64,000 nt of DNA from an uncultured Flavobacteriaceae bacterium (GTDB lineage: Bacteria > Bacteroidota > Bacteroidia > Flavobacteriales > Flavobacteriaceae), in assembly GCA_947494205.1 (NCBI GenBank), contig CANLUH010000004.1, forward strand, positions 152,773 through 216,772. The letters are read 5' to 3'. Made by a program: the position numbers and the translations under genes. How positions within the stretch are numbered: the first letter of the stretch is position 1; the number at the start of each line of letters is the position of its first letter. The notes under the pieces are model-generated. The model had not been told where the DNA came from. It saw nothing but the letters and a program-made list of their open reading frames with translations, and ran no database searches. This document shows, in pieces, positions 2 to 19,485 of the stretch.

Positions 2-826
2 ATGGCCATTAAAGCCGCTAAAGATTTATTACGTAAAAGCGGCACAAACCCTGAAGACATAGAACTAGTAATAGTTTCTACTGCAACTCCAGACATGAAA
101 GCAGCCACTACTGCTGCATATACTGCAACTCAAATAGGAGCAACAAATGCTTTTTCTTTCGATTTAGAAGCAGCCTGTTCAAGTTTCCTATTTGGCATGG
201 CCACTGCCGCCAGATACATAGAATCTGGAAAATACAAAAAAGTACTATTAATAGGAGCAGATAAAAATTCTTCTATGATTAATCCAAAAGATAGAGCAAC
301 ATGCATTATTTTTGGAGACGGTGCAGGAGCAGTTCTATTTGAACCTAATGAAGAACAATTAGGTTTACAAGATGAGTATTTAAGAAGTGATGGTATTGGT
401 AGAGAATTTCTACAAGCCAAAGTGGGAGGCTCATCGTACCCAATGACAGCAGAAGCATTAGCTAACGAAGAACATTACGTTTTTCAAGATGGAAGAACAG
501 TATTTAAAAATGCTGTATCTAATATGGCAGATGTTGCCGTTAAAATTTTAGAACGTAACAATTTAACAAAAGAAGACATTGCATGGTTAGTAGCTCACCA
601 AGCAAACAAACGAATTATAGATGCTACAGCAAATCGTATAGAATTAGATCATAAAAAAGTAATGATGAATATTCATAAATATGGTAACACCACATCGGCA
701 ACGTTACCGTTACTTTTAAGTGATTACGAATCGCAACTAAAAAAAGGAGACAATTTAATATTTGCTGCTTTTGGAGGCGGATTCACATGGGGATCAATTT
801 ATTTAAAATGGGCTTATAACTCATAA
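2..826 (+). CDS. fabH: 3-oxoacyl-ACP synthase III (FabH), N-terminally truncated by window edge
   Basis: Translation shows the KAS III core (AACSSF active-site Cys region, HQANKRI and NTTSAT motifs, C-terminal GGGFTWGS). It is followed by accB-accC, as in the conserved operon. Confidence 0.85.
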   Translation: MAIKAAKDLLRKSGTNPEDIELVIVSTATPDMKAATTAAYTATQIGATNAFSFDLEAACSSFLFGMATAARYIESGKYKKVLLIGADKNSSMINPKDRATCIIFGDGAGAVLFEPNEEQLGLQDEYLRSDGIGREFLQAKVGGSSYPMTAEALANEEHYVFQDGRTVFKNAVSNMADVAVKILERNNLTKEDIAWLVAHQANKRIIDATANRIELDHKKVMMNIHKYGNTTSATLPLLLSDYESQLKKGDNLIFAAFGGGFTWGSIYLKWAYNS

Positions 827-862
827 TAAACCAACTAAACTAAAATTTAATACATTTTAATT

Positions 863-1345
863 ATGGATTTAAAAGACATTCAAAACTTAATCAAATTTGT
901 AGCTAAGTCTGGTGCTAGTGAAGTTAAACTAGAAACAGAAGATGTTAAAATCACTATAAAAACAGGTTCAGATACCGAAACAACTATTGTACAGCAAATG
1001 CCAATGGCAGCTCAAATGCCACAAATGGCAATGCCTACGCAACCAGTAGCTCCAGCTACGCCAGCTGTACCGGCAGAAAAAGCGGCTCCGGCTGAAGATT
1101 CTAAATATATTACTGTAAAATCTCCAATAATTGGTACTTTTTACAGAAAACCATCTCCAGACAAGCCTTTATTTGTTGAAGTTGGGCAAACTATAGCAGA
1201 AGGTGATGTATTATGTATTATAGAAGCTATGAAGTTATTTAACGAAATAGAATCTGAAGTTTCAGGTAAAGTTGTTAAAATATTAGTGGACGATGCTTCT
1301 CCTGTAGAATTTGATCAACCATTATTTTTAGTAGATCCATCTTAA
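863..1345 (+). CDS. accB: biotin carboxyl carrier protein of acetyl-CoA carboxylase
   Basis: Pro/Ala-rich linker and C-terminal biotinyl domain with the EAMKLFNEIE biotinylation motif. Sits directly upstream of accC. Confidence 0.9.
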   Translation: MDLKDIQNLIKFVAKSGASEVKLETEDVKITIKTGSDTETTIVQQMPMAAQMPQMAMPTQPVAPATPAVPAEKAAPAEDSKYITVKSPIIGTFYRKPSPDKPLFVEVGQTIAEGDVLCIIEAMKLFNEIESEVSGKVVKILVDDASPVEFDQPLFLVDPS

Positions 1346-1424
1346 TTTGAAGTTTAAAGTTTTAAGTTTTAAGCATAGTAATGCATAAACGAATAAACCT
1401 ATAGACTCTTAAACTCATAAAGAT

Positions 1425-2777
1425 ATGTTTAAAAAAATATTAGTAGCAAACAGAGGTGAAATAGCATTACGTGTTATTAGAACCTGTAAAGAAATGGGCA
1501 TAAAAACGGTAGCTGTATATTCTACAGCAGATGCCGAAAGTCTTCACGTAAAATTTGCTGACGAAGCGGTTTGTATAGGACCAGCGCCAAGTAGCGAATC
1601 TTACTTAAAAATGTCTAATATTATTGCAGCAGCAGAAATTACAAATGCAGATGCAATACACCCGGGATACGGTTTTTTATCTGAAAACGCTAAATTTTCA
1701 CAAATTTGCGATGAACACGAAATCAAATTCATTGGAGCTTCGGCGGAGATGATTGATAGAATGGGAGATAAAGCCAATGCAAAAGCAACAATGAAAGCTG
1801 CTGGAGTACCATGTGTACCAGGAAGTGAAGGTATTATTGAATCGTTTGAAGAATGTGAAAAACTTGCTATTGAAACTGGTTATCCTGTAATGCTTAAAGC
1901 ATCTGCAGGTGGTGGTGGAAAAGGAATGCGTGCTGTTTGGAAACCTGAAGACTTAAAAGATGCTTGGGATTCTGCAAGACAAGAATCTAAAGCGGCCTTT
2001 GGAAACGACGATATGTACATGGAGAAACTTATTGAAGAACCTAGACATATTGAGATTCAAGTGGTAGGAGACTCTAACGGGAAAGCATGTCATTTATCTG
2101 AACGTGATTGCTCTGTACAAAGACGTCACCAAAAATTAACAGAAGAAGTACCTTCTCCGTTCATGACCGATGAGTTAAGAACTAAAATGGGAGAAGCCGC
2201 AGTAAAAGCTGCAGAATATATTAAGTATGAAGGTGCAGGAACTGTAGAGTTCTTGGTAGACAAGCACAGAAACTTCTACTTCATGGAGATGAATACACGT
2301 ATTCAAGTAGAACACCCAATTACAGAGCAAGTAATTGATTTCGATTTAATTCGTGAACAAATATTAGTCGCTGCAGGTGTGCCAATTTCTGGTAAAAACT
2401 ATACACCAAATTTACATTCTATAGAATGTAGAATTAATGCAGAAGATCCTTTCAACGATTTTAGACCTTCACCAGGAAAAATAACAACATTACATGCTCC
2501 AGGTGGTCATGGTGTACGCTTAGATACTCACGTATATGCAGGATACTCTATCCCGCCAAACTACGATTCTATGATTGCGAAGTTAATTACAACAGCGCAA
2601 ACTAGAGAAGAAGCTATTAACAAAATGAAACGAGCTTTAGATGAGTTTGTTATAGAAGGTATAAAAACAACAATCCCGTTCCATAGACAATTAATGGAAC
2701 ATCCAGATTATTTAGCAGGAAACTATACTACTAAATTTATGGAAGATTTTGTTATAGATAGAAACACAGAAGATTAA
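1425..2777 (+). CDS. accC: biotin carboxylase subunit of acetyl-CoA carboxylase
   Basis: 450 aa with an ATP-grasp fold, starting [17 protein letters not shown] and carrying the glycine-rich loop GGGGKGMR. Confidence 0.95.
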
Positions 2778-6332: not shown

Positions 6333-7445
6333 ATGAATCTATCCTACTGGGAAATAAAAAGCTGGTTTACTAATGTAGATTATACAATAGTTGGTAGTGG
6401 TATTGTAGGACTTAATTGTGCCTTACAATTAAAAACACGATTTCCTAAAGCTAATGTTTTAATATTAGAAAAAGGCATGTTGCCCCAAGGTGCTAGCACA
6501 AAAAATGCTGGATTTGCATGCTTTGGTAGTTTAAGTGAGTTGATAGACGATTGTAATAATCATACAACATTAGAAGTATTAGAATTAGTAAAAAAGCGTA
6601 TTAATGGTCTACAATTATTAAGACAAACTTTAGGAGATGAATCTATTGATTATAAAGAACTAGGTGGTTACGAGTTGTTTTTAAAAAAAGATCCTGATTT
6701 TTATGACGATTGCCTTTCTAAGCGACACAGTATAAATACACTTCTAAAACCTATTTTTAATGATACCGTTTTCGACTTAAAAGATAACCAATTCCATTTC
6801 GAAAATATAAAACCACAATACAGTTTTAATAAATTTGAAGGACAGATTGATACTGGAAAAATGATGGAATCCTTACTTTTAAAAGTACAATCTAAGGGCA
6901 TTAAAATTATAAATAATTGTAAGGTTGAAGCATTTTCAGAGGATGCTAACTCTGTTAAAATAAAAACAAAAACATTCGAATTTTCTACATCAAAACTTTT
7001 AATAGCAACTAATGGATTTGCTTCACAATTATTAAACGAATCTGTAAAACCAGCTAGAGCTCAAGTTTTAATAACTAAACCCATTAAAAACCTACATATT
7101 AAAGGCACTTTTCATTTAGACAAAGGTTATTATTATTTTAGAAATATAGATAATAGAATATTATTTGGAGGCGGAAGAAACTTAGACTTTAAAACAGAAG
7201 AAACTACTACATTAGAACAAACAGAACTAATACAAAAATCTCTAGAAACACTATTAAAGAACACTATTTTACCAAATACACCTTTTGAAGTCGATCACCG
7301 TTGGAGTGGTATTATGGGGATTGGGCAACAAAAAAAAGCAATAGTAAAACAGCTTTCTAATAATGTATATTGTGGTGTTCGTTTGGGAGGCATGGGAGTA
7401 GCTATTGGTAGTTTAGTAGGTAAAGAATTGGGAGACATAATATAA
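6333..7445 (+). CDS. FAD-dependent oxidoreductase (DAO family)
   Basis: N-terminal Rossmann dinucleotide motif IVGSGIVGLNCALQL; ~370 aa. Confidence 0.7.
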   Translation: MNLSYWEIKSWFTNVDYTIVGSGIVGLNCALQLKTRFPKANVLILEKGMLPQGASTKNAGFACFGSLSELIDDCNNHTTLEVLELVKKRINGLQLLRQTLGDESIDYKELGGYELFLKKDPDFYDDCLSKRHSINTLLKPIFNDTVFDLKDNQFHFENIKPQYSFNKFEGQIDTGKMMESLLLKVQSKGIKIINNCKVEAFSEDANSVKIKTKTFEFSTSKLLIATNGFASQLLNESVKPARAQVLITKPIKNLHIKGTFHLDKGYYYFRNIDNRILFGGGRNLDFKTEETTTLEQTELIQKSLETLLKNTILPNTPFEVDHRWSGIMGIGQQKKAIVKQLSNNVYCGVRLGGMGVAIGSLVGKELGDII

Positions 7446-9781: not shown

Positions 9782-10459
9782 ATGAAAAAACTATTTCGCT
9801 TTGTCATGAAACTATGCTTTTGGTTAGTTCTTTTCTCTTTTGCTATTGTTTTACTCTTTAAATGGGTTCCTGTACCAGTAACTCCGTTAATGATCATTCA
9901 AAAAACTGAAAGTAATAAAAGGCAACAAAAACATACTTGGGTACCTTTAAAAGCAATATCTAAAAAACTACAGTTAGCTGTTATTTGTAGCGAAGACCAA
10001 TTCTTTTTAAACCATAATGGTTTCGACTTAAAAGCCATTGAAAAAGCTTATGAATACAATAAAAAAGGGAAACGCATTAAAGGCGCCAGTACTATAAGCC
10101 AGCAAACCGCTAAAAATGTATTTTTATGGCCAGAACGCAGTTGGTTACGCAAAGGCTTAGAAACGTATTTTACATTTTTAATAGAACTCACTTGGTCTAA
10201 AGAACGTATTTTGGAAGTCTACCTTAATAGTATAGAAATGGGAAATGGTATTTTTGGTGCAGAGGCAGCAGCACAATATTGGTTTAAAAAACCAGCCTCT
10301 AAATTAACAACATACGAAGCTGCTGCCATTGCCTCTATTTTACCAAAACCAAGACAATATAAAGCTAACCCTGCCACAAATTATATCCAGAAAAGAAAGC
10401 AATGGATTGTAAAACAAATGCAGTATTTTGGCCCTTTAAATTTTGAAACCAAAGAATAA
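9782..10459 (+). CDS. mtgA: monofunctional biosynthetic peptidoglycan transglycosylase
   Basis: N-terminal TM anchor and GT51 motifs (EDQFFLNHNGFD, GASTISQQ). Confidence 0.85.
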   Translation: MKKLFRFVMKLCFWLVLFSFAIVLLFKWVPVPVTPLMIIQKTESNKRQQKHTWVPLKAISKKLQLAVICSEDQFFLNHNGFDLKAIEKAYEYNKKGKRIKGASTISQQTAKNVFLWPERSWLRKGLETYFTFLIELTWSKERILEVYLNSIEMGNGIFGAEAAAQYWFKKPASKLTTYEAAAIASILPKPRQYKANPATNYIQKRKQWIVKQMQYFGPLNFETKE

Positions 10460-10461
10460 AT

Positions 10462-10914
10462 ATGTCTTTAATAAAAGAACAGCTTTTTACGCAATGTTTA
10501 GCATTTATAGACAATCGTTTATTAACGGTTAAAAGCACCATGCAAGAACTACAAGAATCGCTACTTTCTGAAACTAAAAGTAGTGCCGGAGACAAACACG
10601 AAACCGGACGTGCCATGCTTCAATTAGAACGTGAAAAAGCAGGAAATCAATTAGCAGAAATACTAAAAATAAAAGAAAACCTTTCAAAAATTAATACAAA
10701 CAACACTTCAGAAACCATACACTTAGGAAGTGTCGTTTATACAACACAAGCCAATTATTATATTGCTATTAGTGCAGGAATTATTACAATAGACAATATT
10801 AATTTTTACGCCATTTCACCAATTACCCCAATAGCCAAATTATTATTAGCAAAAACAGTTAATGATACCATAACTTTTAGAACTACAACCTTTACAATTA
10901 CTAACGTTATTTAA
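10462..10914 (+). CDS. hypothetical protein
   Basis: 150-aa ORF immediately upstream of the PKS operon. It may belong to that operon, but no motif was recognised. Confidence 0.4.
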   Translation: MSLIKEQLFTQCLAFIDNRLLTVKSTMQELQESLLSETKSSAGDKHETGRAMLQLEREKAGNQLAEILKIKENLSKINTNNTSETIHLGSVVYTTQANYYIAISAGIITIDNINFYAISPITPIAKLLLAKTVNDTITFRTTTFTITNVI

Positions 10915-10970
10915 TTTTCATTTAAGACAGAATCGGCTTACCTTAGTAAAAAAACAGATTTTAGTAGTCA

Positions 10971-12110
10971 TTGAATTTAAATACTCTACATGCAGATGTT
11001 ATAATAGTTGGCGGAGGCTTAGCAGGTTTATCTTGTGCTATTCACTTATCTAAACAAAACACTTCTGTTTTACTCATAGAAAAAAATAACTATCCTAAAC
11101 ATAAGGTTTGTGGTGAATATATAAGTAACGAAGTTCTACCCTATCTTAACTTTTTGGATATTGATGTGTTTAACTTAGGTGCTAAAAAAATCAATACCTT
11201 CGAATTATCTACACAGCAAAACAAATATATAACCGCAACACTACCATTAGGCGGTTTTGGCATTAGTCGTTACTGTCTAGATAATGCAATGGTAGAAAAA
11301 GCTAAAGCGCAACAGGTTGAGATTATACAAGATACTGTTGAAGATATTCGTTTTTTAGATAATACGTTTTCAGTAGGAACAAAAAGTAATGGGACTTTAC
11401 AATCAAAAATTGTTATTGGTGCTTATGGGAAACGCGCTAATTTAGATGTAAAACTAAACCGTCGTTTTATTAAAAATAAGTCGCCGTTTTTAGCAGTAAA
11501 AACACATTTAAAAGGCGAATTCCCTTCAAATACAGTAGCACTTCATAATTTTAAAGGTGGGTATTGTGGTGTTTCGAAAGTAGAAAACAACAACATCAAC
11601 CTGTGCTATATTACGAGTTTTGAAACCTTCAAAAAACATAAAAACATTGAAGACTTTCAAGAAAAAATACTGTTTCAGAATACATTTTTAAAACAAATCA
11701 TTTCTGAAACTGAACCCGTTTTCAAACAACCCTTAACCATTAGTCAAATTTCTTTCGAAACTAAAAACCCTATAGAAAATCATATCATCATGTGTGGTGA
11801 TAGCGCTGGCATGATTCATCCATTATGCGGTAATGGTATGAGTATGGCCATACGAAGTGCACAAATGGCCTCTTTAGCGATTATTGAGTTTCTTAATAGC
11901 GATATTCCTAATAGAAAAAGAATGGAAAAACAGTATCTTAGAGCATGGAACAGTGAATTTAAAACACGTTTAACAACAGGACATATTGTTGCAAAACTAT
12001 TCAGCAAACATAAAATAGCAGAAATTTTAGTATCTGGATTAAAGCGATTTCCTAAACTATTACCATTTATCATAAAACGAACACATGGTAAAACAATGCA
12101 AGTAAAATGA
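10971..12110 (+). CDS. FAD-dependent monooxygenase/oxidoreductase (SrsC-like)
   Basis: GxGxxG motif (IIVGGGLAGLSCA). Its stop overlaps the start of the methyltransferase gene. Confidence 0.7.
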   Translation: MNLNTLHADVIIVGGGLAGLSCAIHLSKQNTSVLLIEKNNYPKHKVCGEYISNEVLPYLNFLDIDVFNLGAKKINTFELSTQQNKYITATLPLGGFGISRYCLDNAMVEKAKAQQVEIIQDTVEDIRFLDNTFSVGTKSNGTLQSKIVIGAYGKRANLDVKLNRRFIKNKSPFLAVKTHLKGEFPSNTVALHNFKGGYCGVSKVENNNINLCYITSFETFKKHKNIEDFQEKILFQNTFLKQIISETEPVFKQPLTISQISFETKNPIENHIIMCGDSAGMIHPLCGNGMSMAIRSAQMASLAIIEFLNSDIPNRKRMEKQYLRAWNSEFKTRLTTGHIVAKLFSKHKIAEILVSGLKRFPKLLPFIIKRTHGKTMQVK

Positions 12111-12817
12111 GCGTATTAGTTAATACAAAATACAGAAGCGAAGAAGAAGAAATTATGGACGATTTGGATTACAATGGTCCAATACTTCATGATGCGTTAG
12201 ATAAACTTGCCAAAATAAACCATTGGTTAGGTGGAAATAAAGTAACTATAAACGGATTAAAAAAAATACTGAAACACCACCCAAAAGATAAACCAGTAAC
12301 CATTATTGATTTAGGTTGCGGAGGTGGTGATATTTTAAGAGACATTGCTAACTTTGGTAAAAAAAACGGTTATCAATTTCAATTAATTGGAATAGATGCC
12401 AATCCTAATACTGTTGAATATGCAAATAAATTATCGCATAATTACGATATTGATTTTAAAGCTATGGATATTTTTTCGGAAGACTTTAAAACACTAGAAT
12501 ACGATGTGGTGATTGCAACATTATTCTTTCATCATTTTAAAGAAGAACAACTGCTTCAATTCTTAAAACCAGTATTAAAAAAAGCCAATTTAGGTGTTGT
12601 TATTAACGATTTACACAGACACCGATTAGCCTATTATCTTTTTAAGTTAATATGCACAACGATTAGTAACAAAACCATTATAGAAGACGGATTAACGTCA
12701 GTTTTAAGAGGTTTTAAACGAAAAGATTTAATACAACTATCCAGACAACTAGATGTAAATTATACCATACAATGGAAATGGGCGTTTCGTTTTTTATGGA
12801 TTTTAAAAAATAATTAA
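12107..12817 (+). CDS. SAM-dependent methyltransferase (SrsB-like)
   Basis: Motif I IIDLGCGGGDIL; overlaps its neighbours at both ends. Confidence 0.75.
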   Translation: MSVLVNTKYRSEEEEIMDDLDYNGPILHDALDKLAKINHWLGGNKVTINGLKKILKHHPKDKPVTIIDLGCGGGDILRDIANFGKKNGYQFQLIGIDANPNTVEYANKLSHNYDIDFKAMDIFSEDFKTLEYDVVIATLFFHHFKEEQLLQFLKPVLKKANLGVVINDLHRHRLAYYLFKLICTTISNKTIIEDGLTSVLRGFKRKDLIQLSRQLDVNYTIQWKWAFRFLWILKNN

Positions 12818-12844
12818 AGTGCCTTAGTACCACTAAAAATAAAT

Positions 12845-13897
12845 ATGAGCGTAAAAATAACAGCAGTAGCAAAACAATTACCGCAATATAGCCGTGAAAC
12901 CAAAGACATTATTCCGTTATTAAAGGTTTGGCTAGAGGGTAAAGAAGAGCGTTTTCAAAGAAAAGTTGTGAAGCTTTTTGAAGGTGCTGGTGTAGACAAA
13001 CGCTATTCTATTATGGATCCTTTGGAGGTATTTACTAAAACATCTTTTGAAGAAAAAAATGACATTTACGCTAGCGAAGTAGTTAAATTAGGAGAACAAT
13101 CGCTTATAAAAGCATTACACAAAGCAAACCTACAACCCACAGACATAGATTATATTATTACGGTAAGCTGTACAGGAATTATGATTCCTTCTATGGATGC
13201 CTACCTTATTAATAATTTAAAAATGAAACAAGACATTGTACGTTTACCCGTTACCGAAATGGGTTGTGCAGCAGGTGTTTCAGGAATTATTTATGCCAAG
13301 AACTTTTTAAAAGCAAACCCCAATAAACGTGCTGCAGTCATTGCTGTAGAAGCGCCAACGGCAACGTTTCAGTTAGACGATTATTCTATGGTAAATATTG
13401 TTAGTGCTGCTATTTTTGGAGATGGTGCTTCTACTGTTATATTGTCTTCTCATGAGAATGAAACAGGACCAAAAATTATAGACGAAGCCATGTATCATTT
13501 CTACGATAAAGAAAACATGATGGGCTTTAAATTAGTGAATACAGGTTTACAAATGATTTTAGATAAGGAAGTACCAGAAACTATTGCGGCACATTTTCCA
13601 AACATAATTCATCCGTTTTTAAAACAAAACGATTTAACTATCGAAGACATTAATCATCTTATATTTCATCCTGGCGGGAAAAAAATAGTACAAACTGTAG
13701 AACAATTATTCGGTGTTTTGGGTAAAAACATAGACGACACCAAAGCCGTTTTAAAATTATACGGTAATATGAGTAGTGCCACTGTTTTGTATGTTTTAGA
13801 GCGTTTTATGGATAAACAATTACCCAAAGGAGACCGCGGCATCATGTTAAGTTTTGGTCCAGGGTTTTCGGCACAACGTATTTTATTAGAATGGTAG
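12845..13897 (+). CDS. type III polyketide synthase (alkylresorcinol/alkylpyrone synthase-like, SrsA-like)
   Basis: Chalcone-synthase-like fold with an active-site Cys in the MGCAAGVSG context. 350 aa, which is distinct from FabH. Confidence 0.8.
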   Translation: MSVKITAVAKQLPQYSRETKDIIPLLKVWLEGKEERFQRKVVKLFEGAGVDKRYSIMDPLEVFTKTSFEEKNDIYASEVVKLGEQSLIKALHKANLQPTDIDYIITVSCTGIMIPSMDAYLINNLKMKQDIVRLPVTEMGCAAGVSGIIYAKNFLKANPNKRAAVIAVEAPTATFQLDDYSMVNIVSAAIFGDGASTVILSSHENETGPKIIDEAMYHFYDKENMMGFKLVNTGLQMILDKEVPETIAAHFPNIIHPFLKQNDLTIEDINHLIFHPGGKKIVQTVEQLFGVLGKNIDDTKAVLKLYGNMSSATVLYVLERFMDKQLPKGDRGIMLSFGPGFSAQRILLEW

Positions 13898-13898
13898 T

Positions 13899-14696
13899 AT
13901 GACACAGGAATTTAAACATAAAAATTATTGGGCATTAATTCTAGGAGGTTCTAGCGGTCTCGGTTTAGCAACGGCAAAAAAACTAGCTAAACACGGTATG
14001 AATATCTGTATTATTTATAGAAACCCAAGACATCAAGAAGATACAATTACTTCAGAGTTTAATAATATTAAAGCAGAAGGTGTTGCATTTAAAGCGTTTA
14101 ATGTTGATGCATTTAAAGCAGAAAAACGACAAACTATCATTTCAGAGTTACAAGATTTTTTTGGTACAGAAGGCAAAATAAGAACGCTGGTACATAGTGT
14201 CGCAAAAGGCAATTTAAAACCTATGATTTCTGAAGACAAACCCATGCTACAAACAGACGATTTTAATTTAACCATAAATGCCATGGCTATTAGTTTGTAC
14301 GATTGGACTAAAGCCCTTTTTGAAGCACAATTATTCGCCAACGATACTCGAATTATAAGTTTTACAAGTGAAGGTAATACTAAAGCTTGGCAAAATTACG
14401 CAGCAGTTTCGGCTGCAAAAGTAACTTTAGAAGCCATTACTAGAAATATCGCTTTAGAATTTGCACCTTTTGGTATTAGAGCCAATTGTATTCAAGCTGG
14501 TGTTACAGACACTGCTTCTTTACGTAAAATTCCTGGAAGCGAACAGCTAAAAGCACATAGTCTAAAACGAAATCCGTTTAAACGATTAACACAACCTGAA
14601 GACGTCGCGAATGCTGTGTATTTACTTTGCAAAGACGAAGCCCGTTGGATTAACGGCTGTGTAATTCCCGTAGATGGAGGCGAACATATTAGCTAA
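13899..14696 (+). CDS. SDR family reductase (enoyl/ketoacyl-ACP reductase-like)
   Basis: Gly-rich NAD(P) motif ILGGSSGLGLA and a YxxxK-type region (YAAVSAAK). Confidence 0.75.
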   Translation: MTQEFKHKNYWALILGGSSGLGLATAKKLAKHGMNICIIYRNPRHQEDTITSEFNNIKAEGVAFKAFNVDAFKAEKRQTIISELQDFFGTEGKIRTLVHSVAKGNLKPMISEDKPMLQTDDFNLTINAMAISLYDWTKALFEAQLFANDTRIISFTSEGNTKAWQNYAAVSAAKVTLEAITRNIALEFAPFGIRANCIQAGVTDTASLRKIPGSEQLKAHSLKRNPFKRLTQPEDVANAVYLLCKDEARWINGCVIPVDGGEHIS

Positions 14697-14702
14697 AAAA
14701 AT

Positions 14703-15158
14703 ATGAACAGTCAAGACATTATAAACCAATTACCCTATACGCCTCCATTTCTATTTGTGGACGGCATTAGCGCCGTTTCTAATGAAGGCATCACAGGACA
14801 TTACACGTTTAAAAAAGACGCTTATTTTTATAAAGGCCATTTTAAAAATAATCCCATGACCCCTGGCGTTATACTTACAGAATGTATGGCGCAAATTGGC
14901 TTGGTTTGTTTAGGTATTTATCTCTTGAAAGATAGTCTTTCGGATGAAAATGCACCACAAATTGCGCTAACGTCAAATACTGTAGATTTCTTTTTACCCG
15001 TATTACCAGAAGAAACGGTGACTGTAGTTTCAGAAAAACAAGTGTTTCGTTTTAATAAATTAAAATGCAGTGTAAAACTCTTTAATGCCAAAAACGAACT
15101 CGTTTGTAGAGGACAAATTTCGGGAATGTTGCATACTAATTCTACAACAATAACATGA
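14703..15158 (+). CDS. FabZ/FabA-like 3-hydroxyacyl-ACP dehydratase (hotdog fold)
   Basis: Motif HFKNNPMTPGVILTECMAQIG matches the FabZ catalytic-His region. Confidence 0.75.
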   Translation: MNSQDIINQLPYTPPFLFVDGISAVSNEGITGHYTFKKDAYFYKGHFKNNPMTPGVILTECMAQIGLVCLGIYLLKDSLSDENAPQIALTSNTVDFFLPVLPEETVTVVSEKQVFRFNKLKCSVKLFNAKNELVCRGQISGMLHTNSTTIT

Positions 15159-16426
15159 AAACAAGAGTCGTTATAACAGGTTTAGGAGTTGTTGCACCAA
15201 ATGGTGTTGGGATTGATGCCTTTACCAAAGCTATTAAACAAGGACAATCTGGGATTACGTACCATCAAAATCTAAAAGACTTAAATTTTTCGTGCTGTAT
15301 TGGTGGTATTCCAACCATTTCTGAAGCTAAAAAATTAGAATACTTAACACCTTTACAATTACGAGGCTTTAATAGCAATGGTATTTTATACGGTTGTATT
15401 GCAGGTATGGACGCTTGGACAAATGCTGGATTATCAATTAATTCTGAAAGCGCGTTAGATTTCGATAGTGGAACTATTTTTGGAGCTGGCACTTCTGGCG
15501 TAGATAAGTTTAGAGAAGCCATTTATAAAATAGACGATAAACAAGTAAAACGTTTAGGTAGCACAGCAGTAGTGCAAACTATGGCAAGTGGTGTTAGTGC
15601 TTTTTTAGGTGGTATTTTAGGTTTAGGGAACCAAGTAACTACAAACTCTTCGGCCTGTACAACTGGAACCGAAGCCATTTTAATGGGTTATGAACGCATT
15701 AAAAACGGACAAGCTAAACGTATGCTTGTTGGTAGTTGTAGCGATGACGGCCCCTACATTTGGGGTGGTTTCGACGCCATGCGTGTTATGGCTTATAAAT
15801 ACAATGATGCACCAGAAGATGGTTCAAGACCATTAAGTGATTCTGCCAACGGATTCGTTCCTGGAAGCGGCGCTGGTGCTTTGGTTTTAGAATCTTTAGA
15901 AAGCGCGCAAGAACGTAACGCGACTATTTATGCCGAAGTATTAGGTGGTACTATTAATTCTGGCGGACAACGTAATGGTGGCACATTGACTGCGCCAAAT
16001 CCAAAAGCGGTACAACGTTGCATTACAGACGCCATAACGCATGCGAATATAACGCCACAAGATATTGATGCCATAAACGGGCATTTAACAGCAACGTCTA
16101 AAGATGCATTAGAAATTGAAAATTGGACAAAAGCCTTACAATTAAATGGAAGTGATTTTCCTTATATTAATACTTTAAAATCGATGACGGGACATTGTTT
16201 AGCTGCCGCAGGAAGTATAGAAAGTGTTGCTACCGTTTTACAACTTAGTAATCAATTTATATTTCCTAATATTAATTGCGATACTGTACACCCTGAGATT
16301 TTAAAATTAATTACTGAAGACCGGATTCCTAAAACACTATTAAAAACCAACATTAATATTATTACAAAAGCAAGTTTTGGTTTTGGAGATGTTAATGGTT
16401 GTGTTATCTTTAAAAAGTATACTTAA
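15155..16426 (+). CDS. beta-ketoacyl-ACP synthase (KAS I/II family)
   Basis: Active-site Cys in NSSACTTGTEAI and the GHxxxAAG motif (MTGHCLAAAG). Confidence 0.85.
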   Translation: MKTRVVITGLGVVAPNGVGIDAFTKAIKQGQSGITYHQNLKDLNFSCCIGGIPTISEAKKLEYLTPLQLRGFNSNGILYGCIAGMDAWTNAGLSINSESALDFDSGTIFGAGTSGVDKFREAIYKIDDKQVKRLGSTAVVQTMASGVSAFLGGILGLGNQVTTNSSACTTGTEAILMGYERIKNGQAKRMLVGSCSDDGPYIWGGFDAMRVMAYKYNDAPEDGSRPLSDSANGFVPGSGAGALVLESLESAQERNATIYAEVLGGTINSGGQRNGGTLTAPNPKAVQRCITDAITHANITPQDIDAINGHLTATSKDALEIENWTKALQLNGSDFPYINTLKSMTGHCLAAAGSIESVATVLQLSNQFIFPNINCDTVHPEILKLITEDRIPKTLLKTNINIITKASFGFGDVNGCVIFKKYT

Positions 16427-16635
16427 CAAAAGAATATTCGACGTCAGTTCGAATGATTCTGAAGCATGAGGAATCGTATCGAGAACTAATTCTGAATAAA
16501 AATCCTTATTCTCGATACAAATTTTACTCATTCTCAATCGTATAAATGCACTCGAATTGACGAATTTTATAATAATGTAAATGAGTTACATAAAAACTAA
16601 CTATAAAAAGATTCCCGCCTACCTGGGAAGTGAGC

Positions 16636-16887
16636 ATGACAACAGAAGCACTAATTACTAAATTAAAAACCATCGTTAAGCCTTATATTCAAGATGAAGC
16701 AGCGTTTAACAATCTTACCGAAGAGACCGATTTTATTAACGATTTAAAAATAAATTCTGCCAACTTAGTAGATGTAGTTTTGGACATTGAAGATGAATTT
16801 GATATTAGACTTGAAAACGACGATATGGAAAAAATGCTAAATGTAAAAGCAGCCATGGACATTGTTAACGAAAAATTGAAAGGGTAA
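16636..16887 (+). CDS. acyl carrier protein
   Basis: 84-aa acidic protein with a DLKINSANLVDVV phosphopantetheine-attachment Ser context. The track ORF starts at GTG 16630; the ATG at 16636 is more likely the start. Confidence 0.75.
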   Translation: MTTEALITKLKTIVKPYIQDEAAFNNLTEETDFINDLKINSANLVDVVLDIEDEFDIRLENDDMEKMLNVKAAMDIVNEKLKG

Positions 16888-17468
16888 TGATTGGTAATGA
16901 CATTGTCGATTTAAAACAAGCTGCTAAAGATTCTAATTGGCAACGCCCGCGTTTTTTAGATAAAGTGTTTACCAAACACGAACAACATTATATTAATACG
17001 TCTCAACAAAAACATGAAATGGTTTGGCTATTATGGAGCATGAAAGAGGCTGCTTATAAAATTCATGTACAGCAATTTGGAACGCGTTTTTTTAATCCTA
17101 AAAAATTGAATTGCACACTAAATTCTGATACTACAGGCATAGTTTCGATTGACAATCTCAGTTATAAAACTAAATCTATAATTACTGAAGACTATATTTA
17201 TACAACTGCAACTTCTGAAGATGTAAACACAATAACAAGTACTTGTTTTGAAATTGAGACCACTGATTATAAAATGCAATCAAAAACACTTAAATCTCGA
17301 TTTTTACAAGATTTTGCTAAAACCAATGCTATAGCTTTAAACAATTTATCTTTAACTAAAAGTGAAATTGGAATACCTCAACTATTTAAAGACAATATTA
17401 AAGTTGACTTGTCTTTATCGTTTACGCATCATGGAATGTTTTGTGGGTATGGGTATTGTAAACGATAA
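16887..17468 (+). CDS. 4'-phosphopantetheinyl transferase
   Basis: PPTase motifs GNDIVD and WSMKEAAYK. The start overlaps the ACP stop. Confidence 0.7.
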   Translation: MIGNDIVDLKQAAKDSNWQRPRFLDKVFTKHEQHYINTSQQKHEMVWLLWSMKEAAYKIHVQQFGTRFFNPKKLNCTLNSDTTGIVSIDNLSYKTKSIITEDYIYTTATSEDVNTITSTCFEIETTDYKMQSKTLKSRFLQDFAKTNAIALNNLSLTKSEIGIPQLFKDNIKVDLSLSFTHHGMFCGYGYCKR

Positions 17469-17503
17469 AATCATTGTACGATAGTTTTGTCGTACAATAC
17501 GTC

Positions 17504-18220
17504 TTATTCTGCAAATACAATAGTTGTATCTTCTAGTTTATGTTCAATAATATACCTTGCCAAATTACACCAAATGGTTACACGGTCTAAAATCCAAGCA
17601 TCTGAAGTTATGACGACAGCTTCACTTTCGGCTAAATAGTTGTCGGGATTATTTTCTAAAATAATGTCCCAATTATAGTTTTCTTGCTCTGCTAATTCTC
17701 GTAGTTTAGTTTTTAATCGTCCACTATTAGACACTGGTTTGTCTAAAACCCAAAGTACACTTTTCACCTCAGCTTGTTTTAAAACGGCCCCAATTAGTAA
17801 TAACGCTTGCTCTGTTTGTTGTACACGTTTATACGTGCCATAAACACTAGATAAATCGCGATAACAATGATCTAATCCTTTAAATATATACCCTTGAGAT
17901 AAGGCACTTTCTAAAATAATAATGAGATTAAAACCATCGATAATAATATCTTTACCTTTTAAAGCTTCTAGAGTAATACAAGTAGATACACGTTGTTCTA
18001 TTTGTTCTTTTGAAGCACTCATACCTTGCAGAGCTTGTTGCTGTCTTACATTAAGTCGGTATCTGTTTCCTACTAATTGTACAGATGATTTTTGAGCATA
18101 ACCTCTAGATAGCAAGTAACACATATCTGTTACAGCCTCTTTAAGTTTTTCTTGCATTTTTAGAGTCCCAAACAATAAATCGTCTCTCCCCTCTTTTCCT
18201 CTATTTTTTAGGTTGCTCAT
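17504..18220 (-). CDS. hypothetical protein
   Basis: 238-aa ORF with no recognised motif. It borders the island's left edge. Confidence 0.4.
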   Translation of the reverse strand: MSNLKNRGKEGRDDLLFGTLKMQEKLKEAVTDMCYLLSRGYAQKSSVQLVGNRYRLNVRQQQALQGMSASKEQIEQRVSTCITLEALKGKDIIIDGFNLIIILESALSQGYIFKGLDHCYRDLSSVYGTYKRVQQTEQALLLIGAVLKQAEVKSVLWVLDKPVSNSGRLKTKLRELAEQENYNWDIILENNPDNYLAESEAVVITSDAWILDRVTIWCNLARYIIEHKLEDTTIVFAE

Positions 18221-18326
18221 TCTATTTATATTCTTTGAAAGACTGTTTTGTTTTTAATTGGGTTTCGCCTTTAGCCTGTCTTGAGCGGAGTCGAAAGGCT
18301 CAACCTGACATAATTAATACTTAAAA

Positions 18327-18378
18327 TAAAGTAAGCGAGATTCGAACCCGCATCTCCTGCGTGACAGGCAGGTGTTTT
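18327..18378 (-). pseudogene. 3'-terminal fragment (~50 nt: anticodon stem through acceptor 3' strand) of tRNA-Asp(GTC); direct repeat of the intact gene at 19021-19092
   Basis: aaagtaagcgagaYtcgaacccgcatctcctgcgtgacaggcaggtgtttt is identical, bar one nucleotide, to the 3' half of the downstream tRNA-Asp. The upstream D-arm/acceptor 5' side is diverged and does not fold. Confidence 0.55.
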
Positions 18379-18517
18379 CCGATTATTATTAGTGCTTTCT
18401 TTGTTTTTATATACCCAATCATTCAAAGTTCGAGCTTTATTTATGAATGCTTATTAAAAGATGAAATCAGTTCTTTATTTTTCTTATCCAATAATAAAAT
18501 ACATTTCTAGACCTTTT

Positions 18518-18895
18518 TTATTTTTTCATAATTTGCTCAACATATCTTTTATGGTTTTCATATCCATTCTTCTTTGGATTTTTCAAATCTATCATACTTC
18601 CTAATCCTGTATCGAAAATTTGCCAATCATGAAGTTTTGCAAGTTCAATCAATTCAAACAACCCATTTTCACCATATAAACTCAGCATCATATTACTTAC
18701 TGGCTCATTACTAATAAAAAAGTCAATCGAGAAGTCTTTTCCTTTTATCTCTCGATGATTCTCATCTTCAATAATATCACTAAATGAACTTTCAAGAATT
18801 CCTGTAAAATCAATCGATTCAAGTTTACCTTCGTCCAATTCTTCAATTGATTTAATAATCTCCTTTGACTTAAATATTACAATATCCCAGCTCAT
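18518..18895 (-). CDS. hypothetical protein
   Basis: 125-aa acidic ORF lying between the tRNA-Asp fragment and the intact tRNA-Asp. Confidence 0.35.
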   Translation of the reverse strand: MSWDIVIFKSKEIIKSIEELDEGKLESIDFTGILESSFSDIIEDENHREIKGKDFSIDFFISNEPVSNMMLSLYGENGLFELIELAKLHDWQIFDTGLGSMIDLKNPKKNGYENHKRYVEQIMKK

Positions 18896-19020
18896 ATTTT
18901 ATTTAGTTAATTTTTTCAACAATCTAATATTTCAAATATAGTAAATCGTTGAGATTATGTATTACTGATATAATCCATTTTAAGTATTCTTTTCGATAGA
19001 AGAATTATTGTAAAGTAAGC

Positions 19021-19092
19021 GAGACTCGAACCCGCATCTCCTGCGTGACAGGCAGGTGTTTTTCCAGTTAAACTATTACTTTCTTTATTTGA
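19021..19092 (-). tRNA. tRNA-Asp(GTC)
   Basis: Manual cloverleaf: acceptor AAAGTAA/TTACTTT, D-stem GTTT/AAAC, anticodon arm CCTGC-CTGTCAC-GCAGG, T-arm GCGGG-TTCGAGT-CTCGC. Confidence 0.7.
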
Positions 19093-19102
19093 TGAAGTAG
19101 GC

Positions 19103-19175
19103 GAGATTCGAACTCGCAACCTCCTACCTGGCAGGCAGGCGCTCTTCCCATTGAGCTACTACTTCTTGTATTATT
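19103..19175 (-). tRNA. tRNA-Gly(GCC)
   Basis: Acceptor GAAGTAG/CTACTTC, D-arm GCTC-AATGGGAA-GAGC, anticodon loop CTGCCAG, T-arm GCGAG-TTCGAAT-CTCGC. Confidence 0.7.
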
Positions 19176-19180
19176 ATTAG

Positions 19181-19250: not shown

Positions 19251-19402
19251 TTTTTGGGGAATGAGCAGGATTACTCACGCCATTTTATTTTTGTTAATAG
19301 GTGTTCATGAATACTTCGTATTTGAACCCGCATATACAACTTGGCTAGTTGTCGTTTTCCATATTTTAACCACCATTCCCATTTATATCATTAAAAAAAG
19401 TA

Positions 19403-19475: not shown

Positions 19476-19485
19476 TTACAGTATT

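What the first reader, a model, noticed from the sequence alone, without database searches (positions are those of the whole stretch)
10462..17468. srsABC-like phenolic-lipid cluster: FAD monooxygenase, methyltransferase and type III PKS with dedicated FAS enzymes
Eight overlapping or abutting plus-strand genes encode an SrsC-like flavoprotein, an SrsB-like methyltransferase and an SrsA-like type III PKS. These are followed by an SDR, a FabZ-like dehydratase, a KAS, an ACP and a PPTase.

This is the logic for making a fatty-acyl starter and condensing it into an alkylresorcinol or alkylpyrone that is then O-methylated and hydroxylated, giving alkylquinone-type membrane lipids.

The cluster sits right beside the housekeeping fabH-accBC genes, yet carries its own ACP and PPTase.
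Basis: partly seen in the sequence, partly recalled or inferred. Interest (0 to 1): 0.6.

Follow-up and report, generated by a model that had tools for sequence, protein, structure and literature searches.

The report
Flavobacterial phenolic-lipid cluster with private FAS
This is a real, strongly conserved gene cluster of marine Flavobacteriaceae that joins a phenolic-lipid-making enzyme trio (type III polyketide synthase, methyltransferase, flavoprotein) to its own small fatty-acid elongation line. The trio is a known kind of pathway, but this combination has no described product.

Summary
The eight genes are present at the stated coordinates and each belongs to the stated family. They are an FAD oxidoreductase (10971-12110), a class I SAM methyltransferase (12107-12817) and a type III PKS with an intact Cys-His-Asn triad (12845-13897). 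They are followed by an SDR, a FabZ-like dehydratase, a FabF/FabB-like KAS, an ACP and a PPTase, ending at 17468.

- The interval starts with a ninth gene, a Gre-factor-like protein at 10462-10914.
- The "SDR" is a FabL-type enoyl-ACP reductase (Tyr-x6-Lys), not a ketoreductase.
- The methyltransferase is not the membrane ICMT type of SrsB. It is the soluble type named for the hierridin methyltransferase HidA.
- fabH-accBC lie 7.7 kb upstream, not adjacent, although the linkage is conserved in about half of the related genomes.

The PKS is clearly not FabH/DarB-like. The seven core genes are colinear in 72 of 80 loci from about 14 genera. The layout persists in two distant Bacteroidota loci (one of them lacking a detectable PPTase) and partly in a third (PKS 56-62% identical). 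It is absent from three non-Bacteroidota relatives.

Best reading: a private, incomplete FAS-II line builds an acyl-ACP starter for an alkylresorcinol-type lipid, which is then O-methylated and hydroxylated. The product itself is inferred, not shown. I rate it a new variant of a known kind, of moderate interest.

The parts
10462..10914 (+). Gre-factor-like 150-aa protein. It is consistently linked to the cluster in Flavobacteriaceae. Its role is unknown, and a regulatory role is my guess.
   Evidence: The Pfam GreA_GreB C-terminal match is weak: 20.5 bits against a cutoff of 26.9. NCBI records name its relatives '3-oxoacyl-ACP synthase' or 'GreA/GreB family'. The AF2 model (pLDDT 79) shows a helical hairpin (2-40 and 44-75) plus a small beta domain. 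The best full-length fold matches are Gfh1, GreA and GreB, but they are not significant (E 0.08-1). Residues 33-66 are almost entirely invariant, including Asp44-x-x-Glu47 at the hairpin tip. The gene is present in 69 of 80 loci. It lies upstream of the FAD gene in most genera and downstream of the PPTase in Polaribacter and Tenacibaculum. It was not detected in the distant Bacteroidota loci.
10971..12110 (+). FAD-dependent oxidoreductase of the geranylgeranyl-reductase/UbiH-like superfamily. It is the presumed ring hydroxylase.
   Evidence: Pfam hits are DAO, FAD_binding_3 and Lycopene_cycl. NCBIfam hits are the GG-reductase family (108 bits, below the 158.8 cutoff), QhpG, LodB and UbiH. PDB matches are weak only: halogenases, UbiI and archaeal GGR. 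The protein contains a single Trp, so it has no WxWxIP halogenase motif (sequence). The GxGxxG glycines are invariant in all 72 orthologues whose alignment covers them, and Cys47 in 77. The ORF starts with TTG, and most orthologues align from residue 9 onwards.
12107..12817 (+). Class I (Rossmann-fold) SAM-dependent methyltransferase. It is the presumed phenol O-methyltransferase.
   Evidence: Pfam hits are Methyltransf_25, _31, _11 and _12, with no ICMT or PEMT hit. The NCBIfam PRK06202 hit scores 142 bits, below its cutoff. The gene overlaps the FAD gene by 4 bp. It is present in 79 of 80 loci and is duplicated in the distant locus L082.
12845..13897 (+). Type III polyketide synthase, 350 aa.
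   Evidence: It matches Chal_sti_synt_N (73.8 bits) and Chal_sti_synt_C (72 bits). The best solved relatives are Pks11, THNS and CylI. On NCBIfam models it scores 179 bits for DpgA, 85 for FabH and 29 for DarB. Cys141, His275 and Asn308 are invariant in 80 of 80 orthologues, as are Phe228 and Met237. It is 81-88% identical across about 14 genera, which is similar to FabH (75-85%).
13899..14696 (+). FabL-type enoyl-ACP reductase.
   Evidence: The best NCBIfam hit is FabL at 158.5 bits, below the equivalog cutoff of 328. The best PDB hit is B. subtilis FabL, 3oic, at 2.5e-25, with Tyr167-x6-Lys174 aligned to the Tyr-x6-Lys of FabL. There is no Lys at Tyr+4. Both residues are invariant in 54 orthologues. 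The gene is absent from the Polaribacter and Tenacibaculum clusters and from some Winogradskyella clusters. JGI names a >=90%-identical protein of the same cluster 'enoyl-ACP reductase I'.
14703..15158 (+). FabZ-like 3-hydroxyacyl-ACP dehydratase.
   Evidence: It matches the Pfam FabA-like domain. NCBIfam scores are 56 bits for FabZ and 31 for FabA. The PDB alignment to FabZ places His46 and Glu60 in the GHF...PGV...E motif. Both residues are invariant in 76 orthologues. Orthologues in distant loci also hit the ApeI-like Pfam family.
15155..16426 (+). Elongating beta-ketoacyl-ACP synthase, FabF/FabB-like.
   Evidence: It matches ketoacyl-synt N and C domains. The fabF model scores 263 bits, below its cutoff of 494. 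The best PDB hits are the Brucella KAS (3u0f) and FabF. Cys168, His310 and His347 are invariant in 74 orthologues. There is no chain-length-factor partner gene.
16630..16887 (+). Dedicated, divergent acyl carrier protein. The start is GTG at 16630 or ATG at 16636.
   Evidence: It matches Pfam PP-binding at 21 bits. NCBIfam ACP models score 44 bits or less, below their cutoffs. Ser43, in the motif DLKINSA, is invariant in 72 orthologues.
16887..17468 (+). 4'-phosphopantetheinyl transferase, 193 aa.
   Evidence: It matches Pfam ACPS at 56.5 bits. It is the least conserved member of the cluster, with a median identity of 41%. An ACPS-family gene follows the ACP in the distant locus L085 as well.
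17473..17498 (.). Hairpin between the convergent PPTase and DUF434 genes. It is the probable 3' end of the operon.
   Evidence: The terminator-like scan finds it on both strands, with an 11-bp stem.
6333..7445 (+). DAO-family FAD oxidoreductase. It is a conserved upstream neighbour, and whether it belongs to the pathway is uncertain.
   Evidence: It matches Pfam DAO at 129 bits. It is present upstream on the same strand in 58 of 80 loci, and it sits immediately upstream of the FAD gene in Polaribacter. No orthologue was detected in the distant Bacteroidota loci.
2..2777 (+). Housekeeping fabH (5'-truncated by the window edge), accB and accC. They are linked to the cluster but not adjacent to it.
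   Evidence: NCBIfam scores are above the cutoffs for FabH, BCCP and AccC. accC lies within 10 kb upstream of the cluster in 38 of 80 loci.

Best explanation
This is an operon for a long-chain phenolic lipid.

Step 1, inferred: the PPTase converts the dedicated ACP to its holo form.

Step 2, inferred: the KAS, FabZ-like dehydratase and FabL-type enoyl reductase run elongation cycles on that ACP. They must borrow the ketoreductase (FabG), the malonyl transferase (FabD) and a primer from housekeeping fatty-acid synthesis. This creates a private pool of acyl-ACP that is kept apart from phospholipid synthesis.

Step 3, enzyme family shown but substrate and product inferred: the type III PKS takes this acyl chain as its starter. 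It adds about three malonyl-CoA units and cyclises the chain, most likely by aldol condensation, to a 5-alkylresorcinol.

Step 4, inferred by analogy with the Srs, Pkq and Hid systems: the soluble SAM methyltransferase O-methylates the ring. The flavoprotein then hydroxylates it, giving a methoxy-alkyl-hydroquinone/quinone or a hierridin-like dimethoxy-alkylphenol that stays in the membrane.

The Gre-factor-like gene and the upstream DAO gene travel with the cluster in Flavobacteriaceae, but their roles are open.
For: - Family assignments and intact catalytic residues for all eight proteins. These residues are invariant in every orthologue aligned at those positions (54-80 per gene).
- The PKS groups with type III PKSs and not with FabH/DarB. 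The nearest non-Bacteroidota cluster representative (44% identity) is from a Planctomycetota MAG. Type III PKSs of cultured Planctomycetota are experimentally alkylresorcinol synthases in an MT-oxidoreductase-PKS operon (PMC10896814); how close the MAG enzyme is to those tested was not checked.
- The FAD-MT-PKS-(ER)-DH-KAS-ACP-PPT set is colinear in 72 of 80 loci from about 14 genera.
- In distant Bacteroidota (PKS 56-62% identical), L085 keeps all eight genes, L082 keeps them up to the ACP with no PPTase detected, and L083 keeps them only up to the dehydratase. Planctomycetota, Bdellovibrionales and candidate-phylum relatives have the PKS with FAD, MT or YceI genes but no FAS genes.
- Direct hand-over of acyl chains from a FAS ACP to type III PKSs has a precedent in Azotobacter ArsA with ArsB and ArsC (PMC6274091). 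HidC is also proposed to use an acyl-ACP starter (PMC8086630).
- An aromatic residue (Phe228, with Met237 nine residues on) sits where I place ArsB Trp281 and ArsC Met293. This is the wall that favours resorcinol formation.
Against: - No chemistry has been done. No product is known for any Bacteroidota cluster of this type, and none was found in the literature searched.
- The FAS set lacks a ketoreductase, an acyltransferase and a primer, so its autonomy is assumed.
- The enoyl reductase is absent from about a third of the clusters. In one distant lineage (L083) only ER and DH follow the PKS.
- The flavoprotein scores best on a reductase family (GG-reductase) and below every curated cutoff, so 'hydroxylase' is an analogy.
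- The Phe228 = ArsB Trp281 mapping rests on my reading of the alignments and could not be checked against an ArsC sequence.
- Pks11, the best solved relative, is deposited in the PDB as an 'alpha-pyrone synthesis polyketide synthase-like' protein.
Confidence: 0.6

Rival explanations
1. The pathway architecture is the same, but the PKS cyclises by lactonisation. The product would be an alkyl-alpha-pyrone methyl ether, as made by Bacillus BpsA/BpsB, rather than a resorcinol-derived quinone.
For: [quoted passage not shown] Closely related enzymes such as ArsB and ArsC differ in cyclisation through a single residue (PMC6274091). JGI labels relatives 'alkylresorcinol/alkylpyrone synthase'.
Against: The position I align with ArsB Trp281 / ArsC Gly284 is an invariant Phe here, and Phe or Tyr in all nine related cluster representatives. 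It is not the small residue linked to pyrone formation. A ring-hydroxylating flavoprotein fits a resorcinol-to-quinone route better. Characterised type III PKSs of cultured Planctomycetota, the phylum of one of the nearest relatives, make alkylresorcinols.
Confidence: 0.15
2. The ER-DH-KAS-ACP-PPTase genes form a separate lipid pathway, for example for a special unsaturated or elongated fatty acid. They would only be syntenic with the FAD-MT-PKS trio.
For: - The trio exists without any FAS genes in other phyla.
- The spacer before the ACP varies up to 1.5 kb.
- One distant lineage keeps only ER and DH.
- The whole region also sits near fabH-accBC in many genomes, so FAS genes may cluster here for other reasons.
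Against: In every one of the 72 loci that hold all seven core genes, the two halves are contiguous, co-oriented and in the same order. In two Bacteroidota lineages whose PKS is only 56-62% identical they also lie next to each other in the same order, with one opposite-strand gene between them in L082. Several junctions overlap or abut (1-bp gap PKS to ER, 4-bp overlap DH/KAS), which suggests co-translation. None of the complete loci has one half without the other.
Confidence: 0.12
3. The cluster is a flexirubin, dialkylresorcinol or aryl-polyene type pathway, in which the 'PKS' is a DarB/FabH-like KAS III.
For: Flexirubin-type pigments are typical of this phylum (PMC6836626). Dehydratase orthologues in distant loci hit the ApeI-like Pfam family.
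Against: The PKS scores 29 bits on the DarB model (cutoff 550) and 23 bits on the StlD/DarB model (cutoff 450). It exceeds the thresholds of both chalcone/stilbene synthase domains. Every PDB hit among the 60 listed is a type III PKS. None of the nine proteins gives a DarA hit. There is a single KAS with no chain-length-factor partner, and most clusters contain an enoyl reductase, which argues against a polyene chain.
Confidence: 0.02

Closest known systems
hidABC (hierridin, Cyanobium) and the Planctomycetota MT-oxidoreductase-type III PKS operon
   Same: Both are trios of a SAM methyltransferase, an FAD oxidoreductase and a type III PKS in one operon, with the PKS gene last. One of the nearest non-Bacteroidota PKS relatives is from a Planctomycetota MAG (44% identity). 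Type III PKSs of cultured Planctomycetota have been shown to make alkylresorcinols (PMC10896814, PMC6836626).
   Different: The gene order here is FAD-MT-PKS. Five FAS-type genes (ER, DH, KAS, ACP, PPTase) are attached, and neither of those systems has them. I made no direct sequence comparison with HidA, HidB or HidC.
srsABC (Streptomyces griseus) and pkqABC (Mycobacterium smegmatis polyketide quinone)
   Same: The logic is the same: a type III PKS makes an alkylresorcinol, which is O-methylated and then hydroxylated to an alkylquinone. All the genes sit in one operon (PMC9927152, PMC10896814).
   Different: SrsB-type methyltransferases are membrane ICMT-family proteins (PMC6669644), whereas this one is a soluble class I enzyme. 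The gene order is reversed. Starters there come from acyl-CoA or general FAS, with no dedicated ACP, KAS, DH, ER or PPTase.
Azotobacter vinelandii arsABCD phenolic-lipid cluster
   Same: A dedicated fatty-acid synthase is encoded next to type III PKSs. It hands its ACP-bound long acyl chain directly to them (PMC6274091, PMC3098273).
   Different: ArsA and ArsD are large type I multidomain synthases, whereas here the enzymes are discrete type II proteins and the set is incomplete. The ars cluster has two PKSs and no methyltransferase or flavoprotein.
Mycobacterial FAS-II (KasA/B, HadABC, InhA, AcpM)
   Same: It is a discrete elongation system with its own ACP that extends products of primary fatty-acid synthesis for a specialised lipid (from my general knowledge).
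   Different: It is not linked to a type III PKS. It includes its own ketoreductase (MabA). No orthology is implied: the AcpM model scores 34 bits against a cutoff of 146.

Membership tests
Type III polyketide synthase (chalcone/stilbene synthase superfamily) | Chal_sti_synt N- and C-terminal domains scoring above the Pfam gathering thresholds | tested here: met
   Scores are 73.8 and 72.0 bits against a cutoff of 27.
Type III polyketide synthase (chalcone/stilbene synthase superfamily) | Cys-His-Asn catalytic triad | tested here: met
   Cys141 aligns with the catalytic Cys of Pks11 (the C-to-S mutant entry 4jat differs at this position). His275 is in FHPGG and Asn308 in GNMSSA. All three are invariant in 80 of 80 orthologues.
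Type III polyketide synthase (chalcone/stilbene synthase superfamily) | Closer to type III PKSs than to FabH/DarB KAS III enzymes | tested here: met
   NCBIfam scores are 179 bits for DpgA, 85 for FabH and 29 for DarB. The 60 best PDB hits listed are all type III PKSs.
srsABC operon (S. griseus alkylresorcinol/alkylquinone) | SrsB-type methyltransferase of the isoprenylcysteine carboxyl methyltransferase (ICMT) family | tested here: not met
   The methyltransferase hits only class I families (Methyltransf_25, _31, _11, _12) and has no ICMT or PEMT hit. SrsB orthologues are described as ICMT-family proteins in PMC6669644.
srsABC operon (S. griseus alkylresorcinol/alkylquinone) | SrsC-type flavoprotein that hydroxylates the methylated resorcinol | tested here: inconclusive
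   The protein is an FAD-binding oxidoreductase. All curated models score below their cutoffs: GG-reductase 108 of 158.8, QhpG, LodB and UbiH. No SrsC sequence was available for direct comparison.
srsABC operon (S. griseus alkylresorcinol/alkylquinone) | The product is an alkylresorcinol-derived methoxy-alkylquinone | not testable with these tools
   This needs LC-MS of a producer or of a heterologous host.
hidABC / Planctomycetota type (methyltransferase + FAD oxidoreductase + type III PKS) | Three-gene operon of a SAM-dependent methyltransferase, an FAD oxidoreductase and a terminal type III PKS | tested here: met
   The three genes overlap or abut. The same trio occurs in the Planctomycetota locus L081 and in Bacteroidota loci. 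The operon is described in PMC10896814 and PMC6836626.
hidABC / Planctomycetota type (methyltransferase + FAD oxidoreductase + type III PKS) | PKS in the same clade as HidC and the characterised Planctomycetota alkylresorcinol synthases | tested here: inconclusive
   It is 44% identical to a Planctomycetota MAG PKS.
Azotobacter ars-type 'FAS feeds type III PKS' system | Dedicated FAS genes next to the PKS and co-inherited with it | tested here: met
   The set is colinear in 72 of 80 loci and is retained fully (L085), without a detectable PPTase (L082) or only as ER and DH (L083) in the Bacteroidota loci with 56-62% PKS identity.
Azotobacter ars-type 'FAS feeds type III PKS' system | Type I multidomain FAS (ArsA/ArsD) | tested here: not met
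   All the enzymes are discrete single-domain proteins of 83-423 aa.
Azotobacter ars-type 'FAS feeds type III PKS' system | Direct acyl transfer from the ACP to the PKS cysteine | not testable with these tools
   This needs an in vitro transfer assay.
Flexirubin / dialkylresorcinol (DarA/DarB) | DarB-type ketosynthase together with DarA | tested here: not met
   The DarB model scores 29 of 550 bits and the StlD/DarB model 23 of 450. None of the nine proteins hits DarA.
FabL-type enoyl-ACP reductase | Tyr-x6-Lys catalytic motif instead of the classical SDR Tyr-x3-Lys | tested here: met
   Tyr167 and Lys174 align to the FabL (3oic) pair. There is no Lys at Tyr+4. Both are invariant in 54 orthologues.
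FabL-type enoyl-ACP reductase | Score above the curated FabL equivalog cutoff | tested here: not met
   The score is 158.5 bits against a cutoff of 328. It is the best-scoring family but not an equivalog.
Gre factor family (GreA/GreB/Gfh1), for the ORF at 10462-10914 | N-terminal coiled-coil hairpin with an acidic tip, plus a C-terminal GreA/GreB domain | tested here: inconclusive
   The Pfam C-terminal domain scores 20.5 bits, below the 26.9 cutoff. The AF2 model has the right architecture. Gfh1, GreA and GreB are the top full-length fold hits, but only at E 0.08-1. An invariant Asp44-x-x-Glu47 lies at the hairpin tip.

The most novel reading that the evidence does not exclude
The product may not be an occasional secondary metabolite. 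It may instead be a near-core membrane redox lipid of aerobic marine Bacteroidota: a polyketide quinone or hierridin-like phenol made on a private FAS-II line. It would supplement menaquinone, the only quinone class reported for the group, in the way PkQ does in mycobacteria. The Gre-like factor would be its dedicated transcriptional control.

The hint is conservation. The PKS is 81-88% identical across about 14 genera, which is as conserved as housekeeping FabH (75-85%) and well above its neighbouring genes. The cluster also keeps a conserved position beside fabH-accBC.
Probability: 0.12. Interest if true: 0.7.

Novelty: new variant of a known kind. Interest (0 to 1): 0.45.

Why it matters
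Type III PKS clusters are repeatedly flagged by antiSMASH in marine Flavobacteriaceae. One survey counts about 0.4 per genome in the marine clade (PMC7440613). Another says they match no known cluster in MIBiG (PMC9860996). No product or function has been reported for them in the literature I could search.

This analysis shows that the Bacteroidota version is a distinct, deeply conserved architecture. It combines the widespread oxidoreductase-methyltransferase-PKS trio with a discrete, incomplete type II elongation module that has its own ACP and PPTase. That is a type II counterpart of the Azotobacter arrangement, in which a type I FAS feeds a type III PKS.

If confirmed, it would give a tractable system for studying how a type III PKS is fed from a dedicated ACP. 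It would also add a new lipid class to the membranes of an abundant group of ocean polysaccharide degraders. The unusually strong conservation of the PKS suggests a physiological role, in the envelope or in redox chemistry, rather than a niche antibiotic.

Tried and rejected
1. Looking up the exact PKS protein to name the source contig gave nothing on record. The organism is therefore placed only as Flavobacteriaceae near Lacinutrix and Psychroserpens, from identities.
2. A metagenome scan with the 61%-identical representative P0258 gave no confirmed locus.
3. I tried to verify the Phe228 = ArsB Trp281 / ArsC Gly284 mapping by searching the PDB with an 83-aa fragment. The result was swamped by spurious TALE-repeat hits and ArsC did not appear. 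The mapping stays an inference.
4. The sigma-70 promoter scan was uninformative: 59 sites against 56.8 expected. The Bacteroidetes -7 motif TAnnTTTG was not found in the three intergenic spacers. No promoter is assigned.
5. I tested whether the 203-bp KAS-ACP spacer is a repeat or mobile element. There are no other copies in the window or in the 80 loci, and the spacer length varies widely among orthologues.
6. The halogenase reading of the flavoprotein, prompted by weak PDB hits, was rejected. The protein has one Trp and no WxWxIP motif.
7. The NCBI name '3-oxoacyl-ACP synthase' for the 150-aa ORF was rejected. It has no thiolase-fold hit and a Gre-like architecture.
8. The Rfam search found no riboswitch or other RNA family in 5000-24000 apart from tRNAs.
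9. A structure prediction for the flavoprotein was not attempted.

Full report
**What is in the sequence**

The window has about 31% G+C and encodes a T9SS-sorted protease. Its proteins are most similar to those of Lacinutrix, Psychroserpens and related marine Flavobacteriaceae.

Between 10462 and 17468 there are nine plus-strand ORFs, not eight.

| Gene | Coordinates |
|---|---|
| FAD oxidoreductase (TTG start) | 10971-12110 |
| Methyltransferase | 12107-12817 |
| Type III PKS | 12845-13897 |
| SDR | 13899-14696 |
| FabZ-like dehydratase | 14703-15158 |
| KAS | 15155-16426 |
| ACP | 16630/16636-16887 |
| PPTase | 16887-17468 |

A hairpin at 17473-17498 sits between the PPTase and a convergent DUF434/DUF5616 gene. 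Minus-strand ORFs inside the cluster are short (79-102 aa) and lie wholly within the plus-strand genes. Rfam finds no RNA element in the cluster.

**Family assignments**

- **PKS.** It passes both chalcone/stilbene-synthase Pfam domains. Its best solved relatives are M. tuberculosis Pks11 (2e-53), THNS and CylI. On NCBIfam models it scores 179 bits for DpgA, 85 for FabH and 29 for DarB. Cys141, His275 and Asn308 are present.
- **KAS.** It is FabF/FabB-like, with Cys168, His310 and His347.
- **Dehydratase.** It has the FabZ His46/Glu60 motif.
- **ACP.** It is divergent but keeps Ser43.
- **PPTase.** It has an ACPS domain.
- **'SDR'.** It is not a ketoreductase type. Its best family and best solved relative are both FabL enoyl-ACP reductase, and Tyr167-x6-Lys174 aligns with the FabL catalytic pair. 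There is no Lys at Tyr+4. It scores below the FabL equivalog cutoff, so I call it FabL-type rather than FabL.
- **Flavoprotein.** It lies in the GG-reductase/UbiH/QhpG neighbourhood and scores below every curated cutoff. Weak halogenase hits are not backed by a WxWxIP motif.
- **Methyltransferase.** It is a class I Rossmann enzyme.

**Is the grouping real?**

A scan of one genome per species returned 80 loci with PKS identity of 81-88%. They come from Psychroserpens, Lacinutrix, Formosa, Olleya, Algicola, Subsaximicrobium, Aquaticitalea, Gelidibacter, Polaribacter, Tenacibaculum, Winogradskyella, Muricauda/Flagellimonas, Algibacter and Hyunsoonleella.

- In 72 of the 80 loci, FAD, MT, PKS, DH, KAS, ACP and PPTase are all present, colinear and on one strand. 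The other eight loci lack at least one core gene; most sit on short or truncated contigs.
- The enoyl reductase is present in 48 of the 72. It is missing in Polaribacter, Tenacibaculum and some Winogradskyella.
- Every catalytic residue listed above is invariant.
- Median identities to the window are PKS 83%, ER 81%, KAS 76%, ACP 75%, DH 70%, FAD 64%, MT 63% and PPTase 41%.
- For scale, housekeeping AccC is 89-95% and FabH 75-85% identical in the same loci. The PKS is therefore conserved like a housekeeping enzyme.

**Depth of the association**

In a search of representatives clustered at 50% identity, the nearest full-length representative is 61% identical. The next are 46% or less, so the clade is isolated.

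I then took the 44% representative, which comes from a Planctomycetota MAG, as a query and looked up gene contexts.

| Locus | Source | PKS identity to window | Layout |
|---|---|---|---|
| L085 | unnamed 4.76-Mb contig (Bacteroidota inferred from a SusC-type TonB-receptor neighbour) | 56% | FAD-MT-PKS-ER-DH-KAS-ACP-PPTase |
| L082 | Bacteroidota MAG | 62% | FAD-MT-MT-PKS-(one gene on the other strand)-ER-DH-KAS-ACP; no PPTase detected |
| L083 | Schleiferiaceae | 57% | FAD-MT-PKS-ER-DH only |
| L081 | Planctomycetota | 44% | PKS with YceI, FAD and MT genes; no FAS genes |
| L084 | Bacteroidota-unrelated Bdellovibrionales | 52% | PKS with FAD and YceI genes; no FAS genes |
| L086 | candidate-phylum bacterium | 49% | PKS with an ICMT-type methyltransferase; no FAS genes |

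In this small sample the FAS add-on is specific to Bacteroidota and is co-inherited with the trio. That is the main argument that the two halves work together.

**Mechanism**

*Shown:* the enzyme families, the intact active sites, and the conserved operon-like organisation.

*Inferred:* the PPTase activates the private ACP. KAS, DH and ER, with borrowed FabG, FabD and a primer, elongate an acyl chain on it. The type III PKS uses that acyl-ACP as starter. The methyltransferase and the flavoprotein then tailor the ring.

Precedents exist for these steps.
- Acyl chains pass directly from the ArsA FAS ACP to ArsB and ArsC in Azotobacter (PMC6274091).
- HidC is proposed to use an acyl-ACP starter (PMC8086630).
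- The resorcinol, O-methylation and hydroxylation sequence is that of Srs, Pkq and Hid (PMC9927152, PMC6836626, PMC10896814).

On resorcinol versus pyrone: the review states that ArsB Trp281 (ArsC Gly284) decides the type of cyclisation and acts through Met293, nine residues downstream. By my alignment through Pks11 and CHS, the equivalent positions here are Phe228 and Met237. Both are invariant in 80 orthologues, and the first is Phe or Tyr in nine distant representatives. This favours resorcinol, but I could not verify the mapping.

**Comparison with known systems**

The trio is a known module. However, SrsB-type methyltransferases are ICMT-family membrane proteins (PMC6669644), and this one is not. 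By enzyme type the cluster is therefore closer to the hidABC/Planctomycetota kind than to srsABC.

The FAS add-on resembles the Azotobacter ars idea, but it uses discrete and incomplete type II parts.

I found no paper that characterises a Bacteroidota cluster of this type. Surveys only list it as 'T3PKS' (PMC7440613) or say it matches nothing in MIBiG (PMC9860996). The library does not hold most subscription-journal papers, so this absence is not proof.

**Neighbours**

fabH (partial), accB and accC are at 2-2777. They are separated from the cluster by six genes:
- a 175-aa ORF on the minus strand
- a T9SS metalloprotease
- a DAO oxidoreductase
- a hybrid histidine kinase, found in none of the 80 loci
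- a monofunctional transglycosylase
- the Gre-like gene

In Psychroserpens and others the order is fabH-accB-accC-DAO-(transglycosylase)-Gre-like-FAD and so on. accC lies within 10 kb upstream in 38 of 80 loci.

The DAO gene (58 of 80 loci) and the Gre-like gene (69 of 80) stay with the cluster even where fabH-accBC do not. In Polaribacter and Tenacibaculum the Gre-like gene has moved to just downstream of the PPTase.

The Gre-like protein has an almost entirely invariant stretch at residues 33-66, with Asp44-x-x-Glu47 at the tip of a predicted helical hairpin. This recalls the acidic tip of GreA; that comparison is from my own knowledge. Its fold matches to Gfh1, GreA and GreB are not significant.

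**Verdict**

This is a new variant of a known kind, of moderate interest. The strongest open point is what the molecule is and why its synthase is conserved like a housekeeping gene.

Noticed in passing
window 18327-47497 (minus strand): A dense RNA-repair and tRNA island lies just downstream of the cluster. It holds about 22 tRNA genes in arrays (18327-18395, 19010-19476, 22867-23275, 37571-39582). Between them are an Rnl2-type RNA ligase (21831-22829), two RlaP nucleotidyltransferases (23942-25012, 25994-26740), a PNKP kinase-phosphatase (29307-30188), a T4 Rnl1-type ligase (30209-31237), RtcB (44678-46069) and a PcfJ-like protein (46115-47497). GC skew changes sign at about 18 kb. None of this is syntenic with the PKS cluster in related genomes, so it looks like a mobile or prophage-like tRNA-repair cargo.
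   Followed up: partly
window 19180-19249 (minus strand): ARAGORN calls a tRNA here with an odd two-base anticodon ('ca') and an undetermined identity. Rfam did not report a tRNA at this position at its gathering score.
   Followed up: no
window 7514-9781 (plus strand): A hybrid histidine kinase/response regulator with TPR repeats is inserted between the DAO gene and the transglycosylase gene. It has no counterpart at this position in any of the 80 related loci, so it is a lineage-specific insertion into an otherwise conserved gene string.
   Followed up: partly
window 10462-10914 and relatives P0144, P0153, P0175 and others: Public records name this Gre-factor-like 150-aa protein family '3-oxoacyl-ACP synthase'. 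That is almost certainly a propagated misannotation. The protein has no thiolase-fold signal, a coiled-coil plus small beta-domain architecture, and a weak match to the GreA/GreB C-terminal domain.
   Followed up: yes
window 19486-20853 (minus strand): An unusual 455-aa SDR. Its Rossmann domain is split into two matched stretches (about residues 142-231 and 301-408) behind a 140-aa N-terminal extension. The neighbouring 231-aa ORF (20862-21557) has no family hit. The pair recurs next to the cluster in only one related locus, L016.
   Followed up: no
P0257 (from the 50%-cluster search): A 4818-aa protein with 12 separate type III PKS-like stretches (27% identity) has the highest summed score in the search. 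A giant multi-copy type III PKS is odd, and it may be a eukaryotic protein or a gene-calling artefact.
   Followed up: no
L053 (contig labelled uncultured Acidimicrobiia MAG): This contig carries a Polaribacter-like copy of the whole cluster (PKS 83% identical, Gre-like gene downstream of the PPTase). It is most likely a mis-binned Flavobacteriaceae contig rather than a transfer to Actinomycetota.
   Followed up: no
L081 and L084 (Planctomycetota and Bdellovibrionales loci): In the non-Bacteroidota relatives, a YceI-family gene sits inside the PKS-FAD(-MT) cluster. YceI proteins are lipid- or polyisoprenoid-binding. This echoes the 'lipid/isoprenoid-binding protein' noted in a Planctomycetota-related operon in PMC10896814, and suggests a carrier for the phenolic lipid. 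No YceI gene is present in the window cluster.
   Followed up: no
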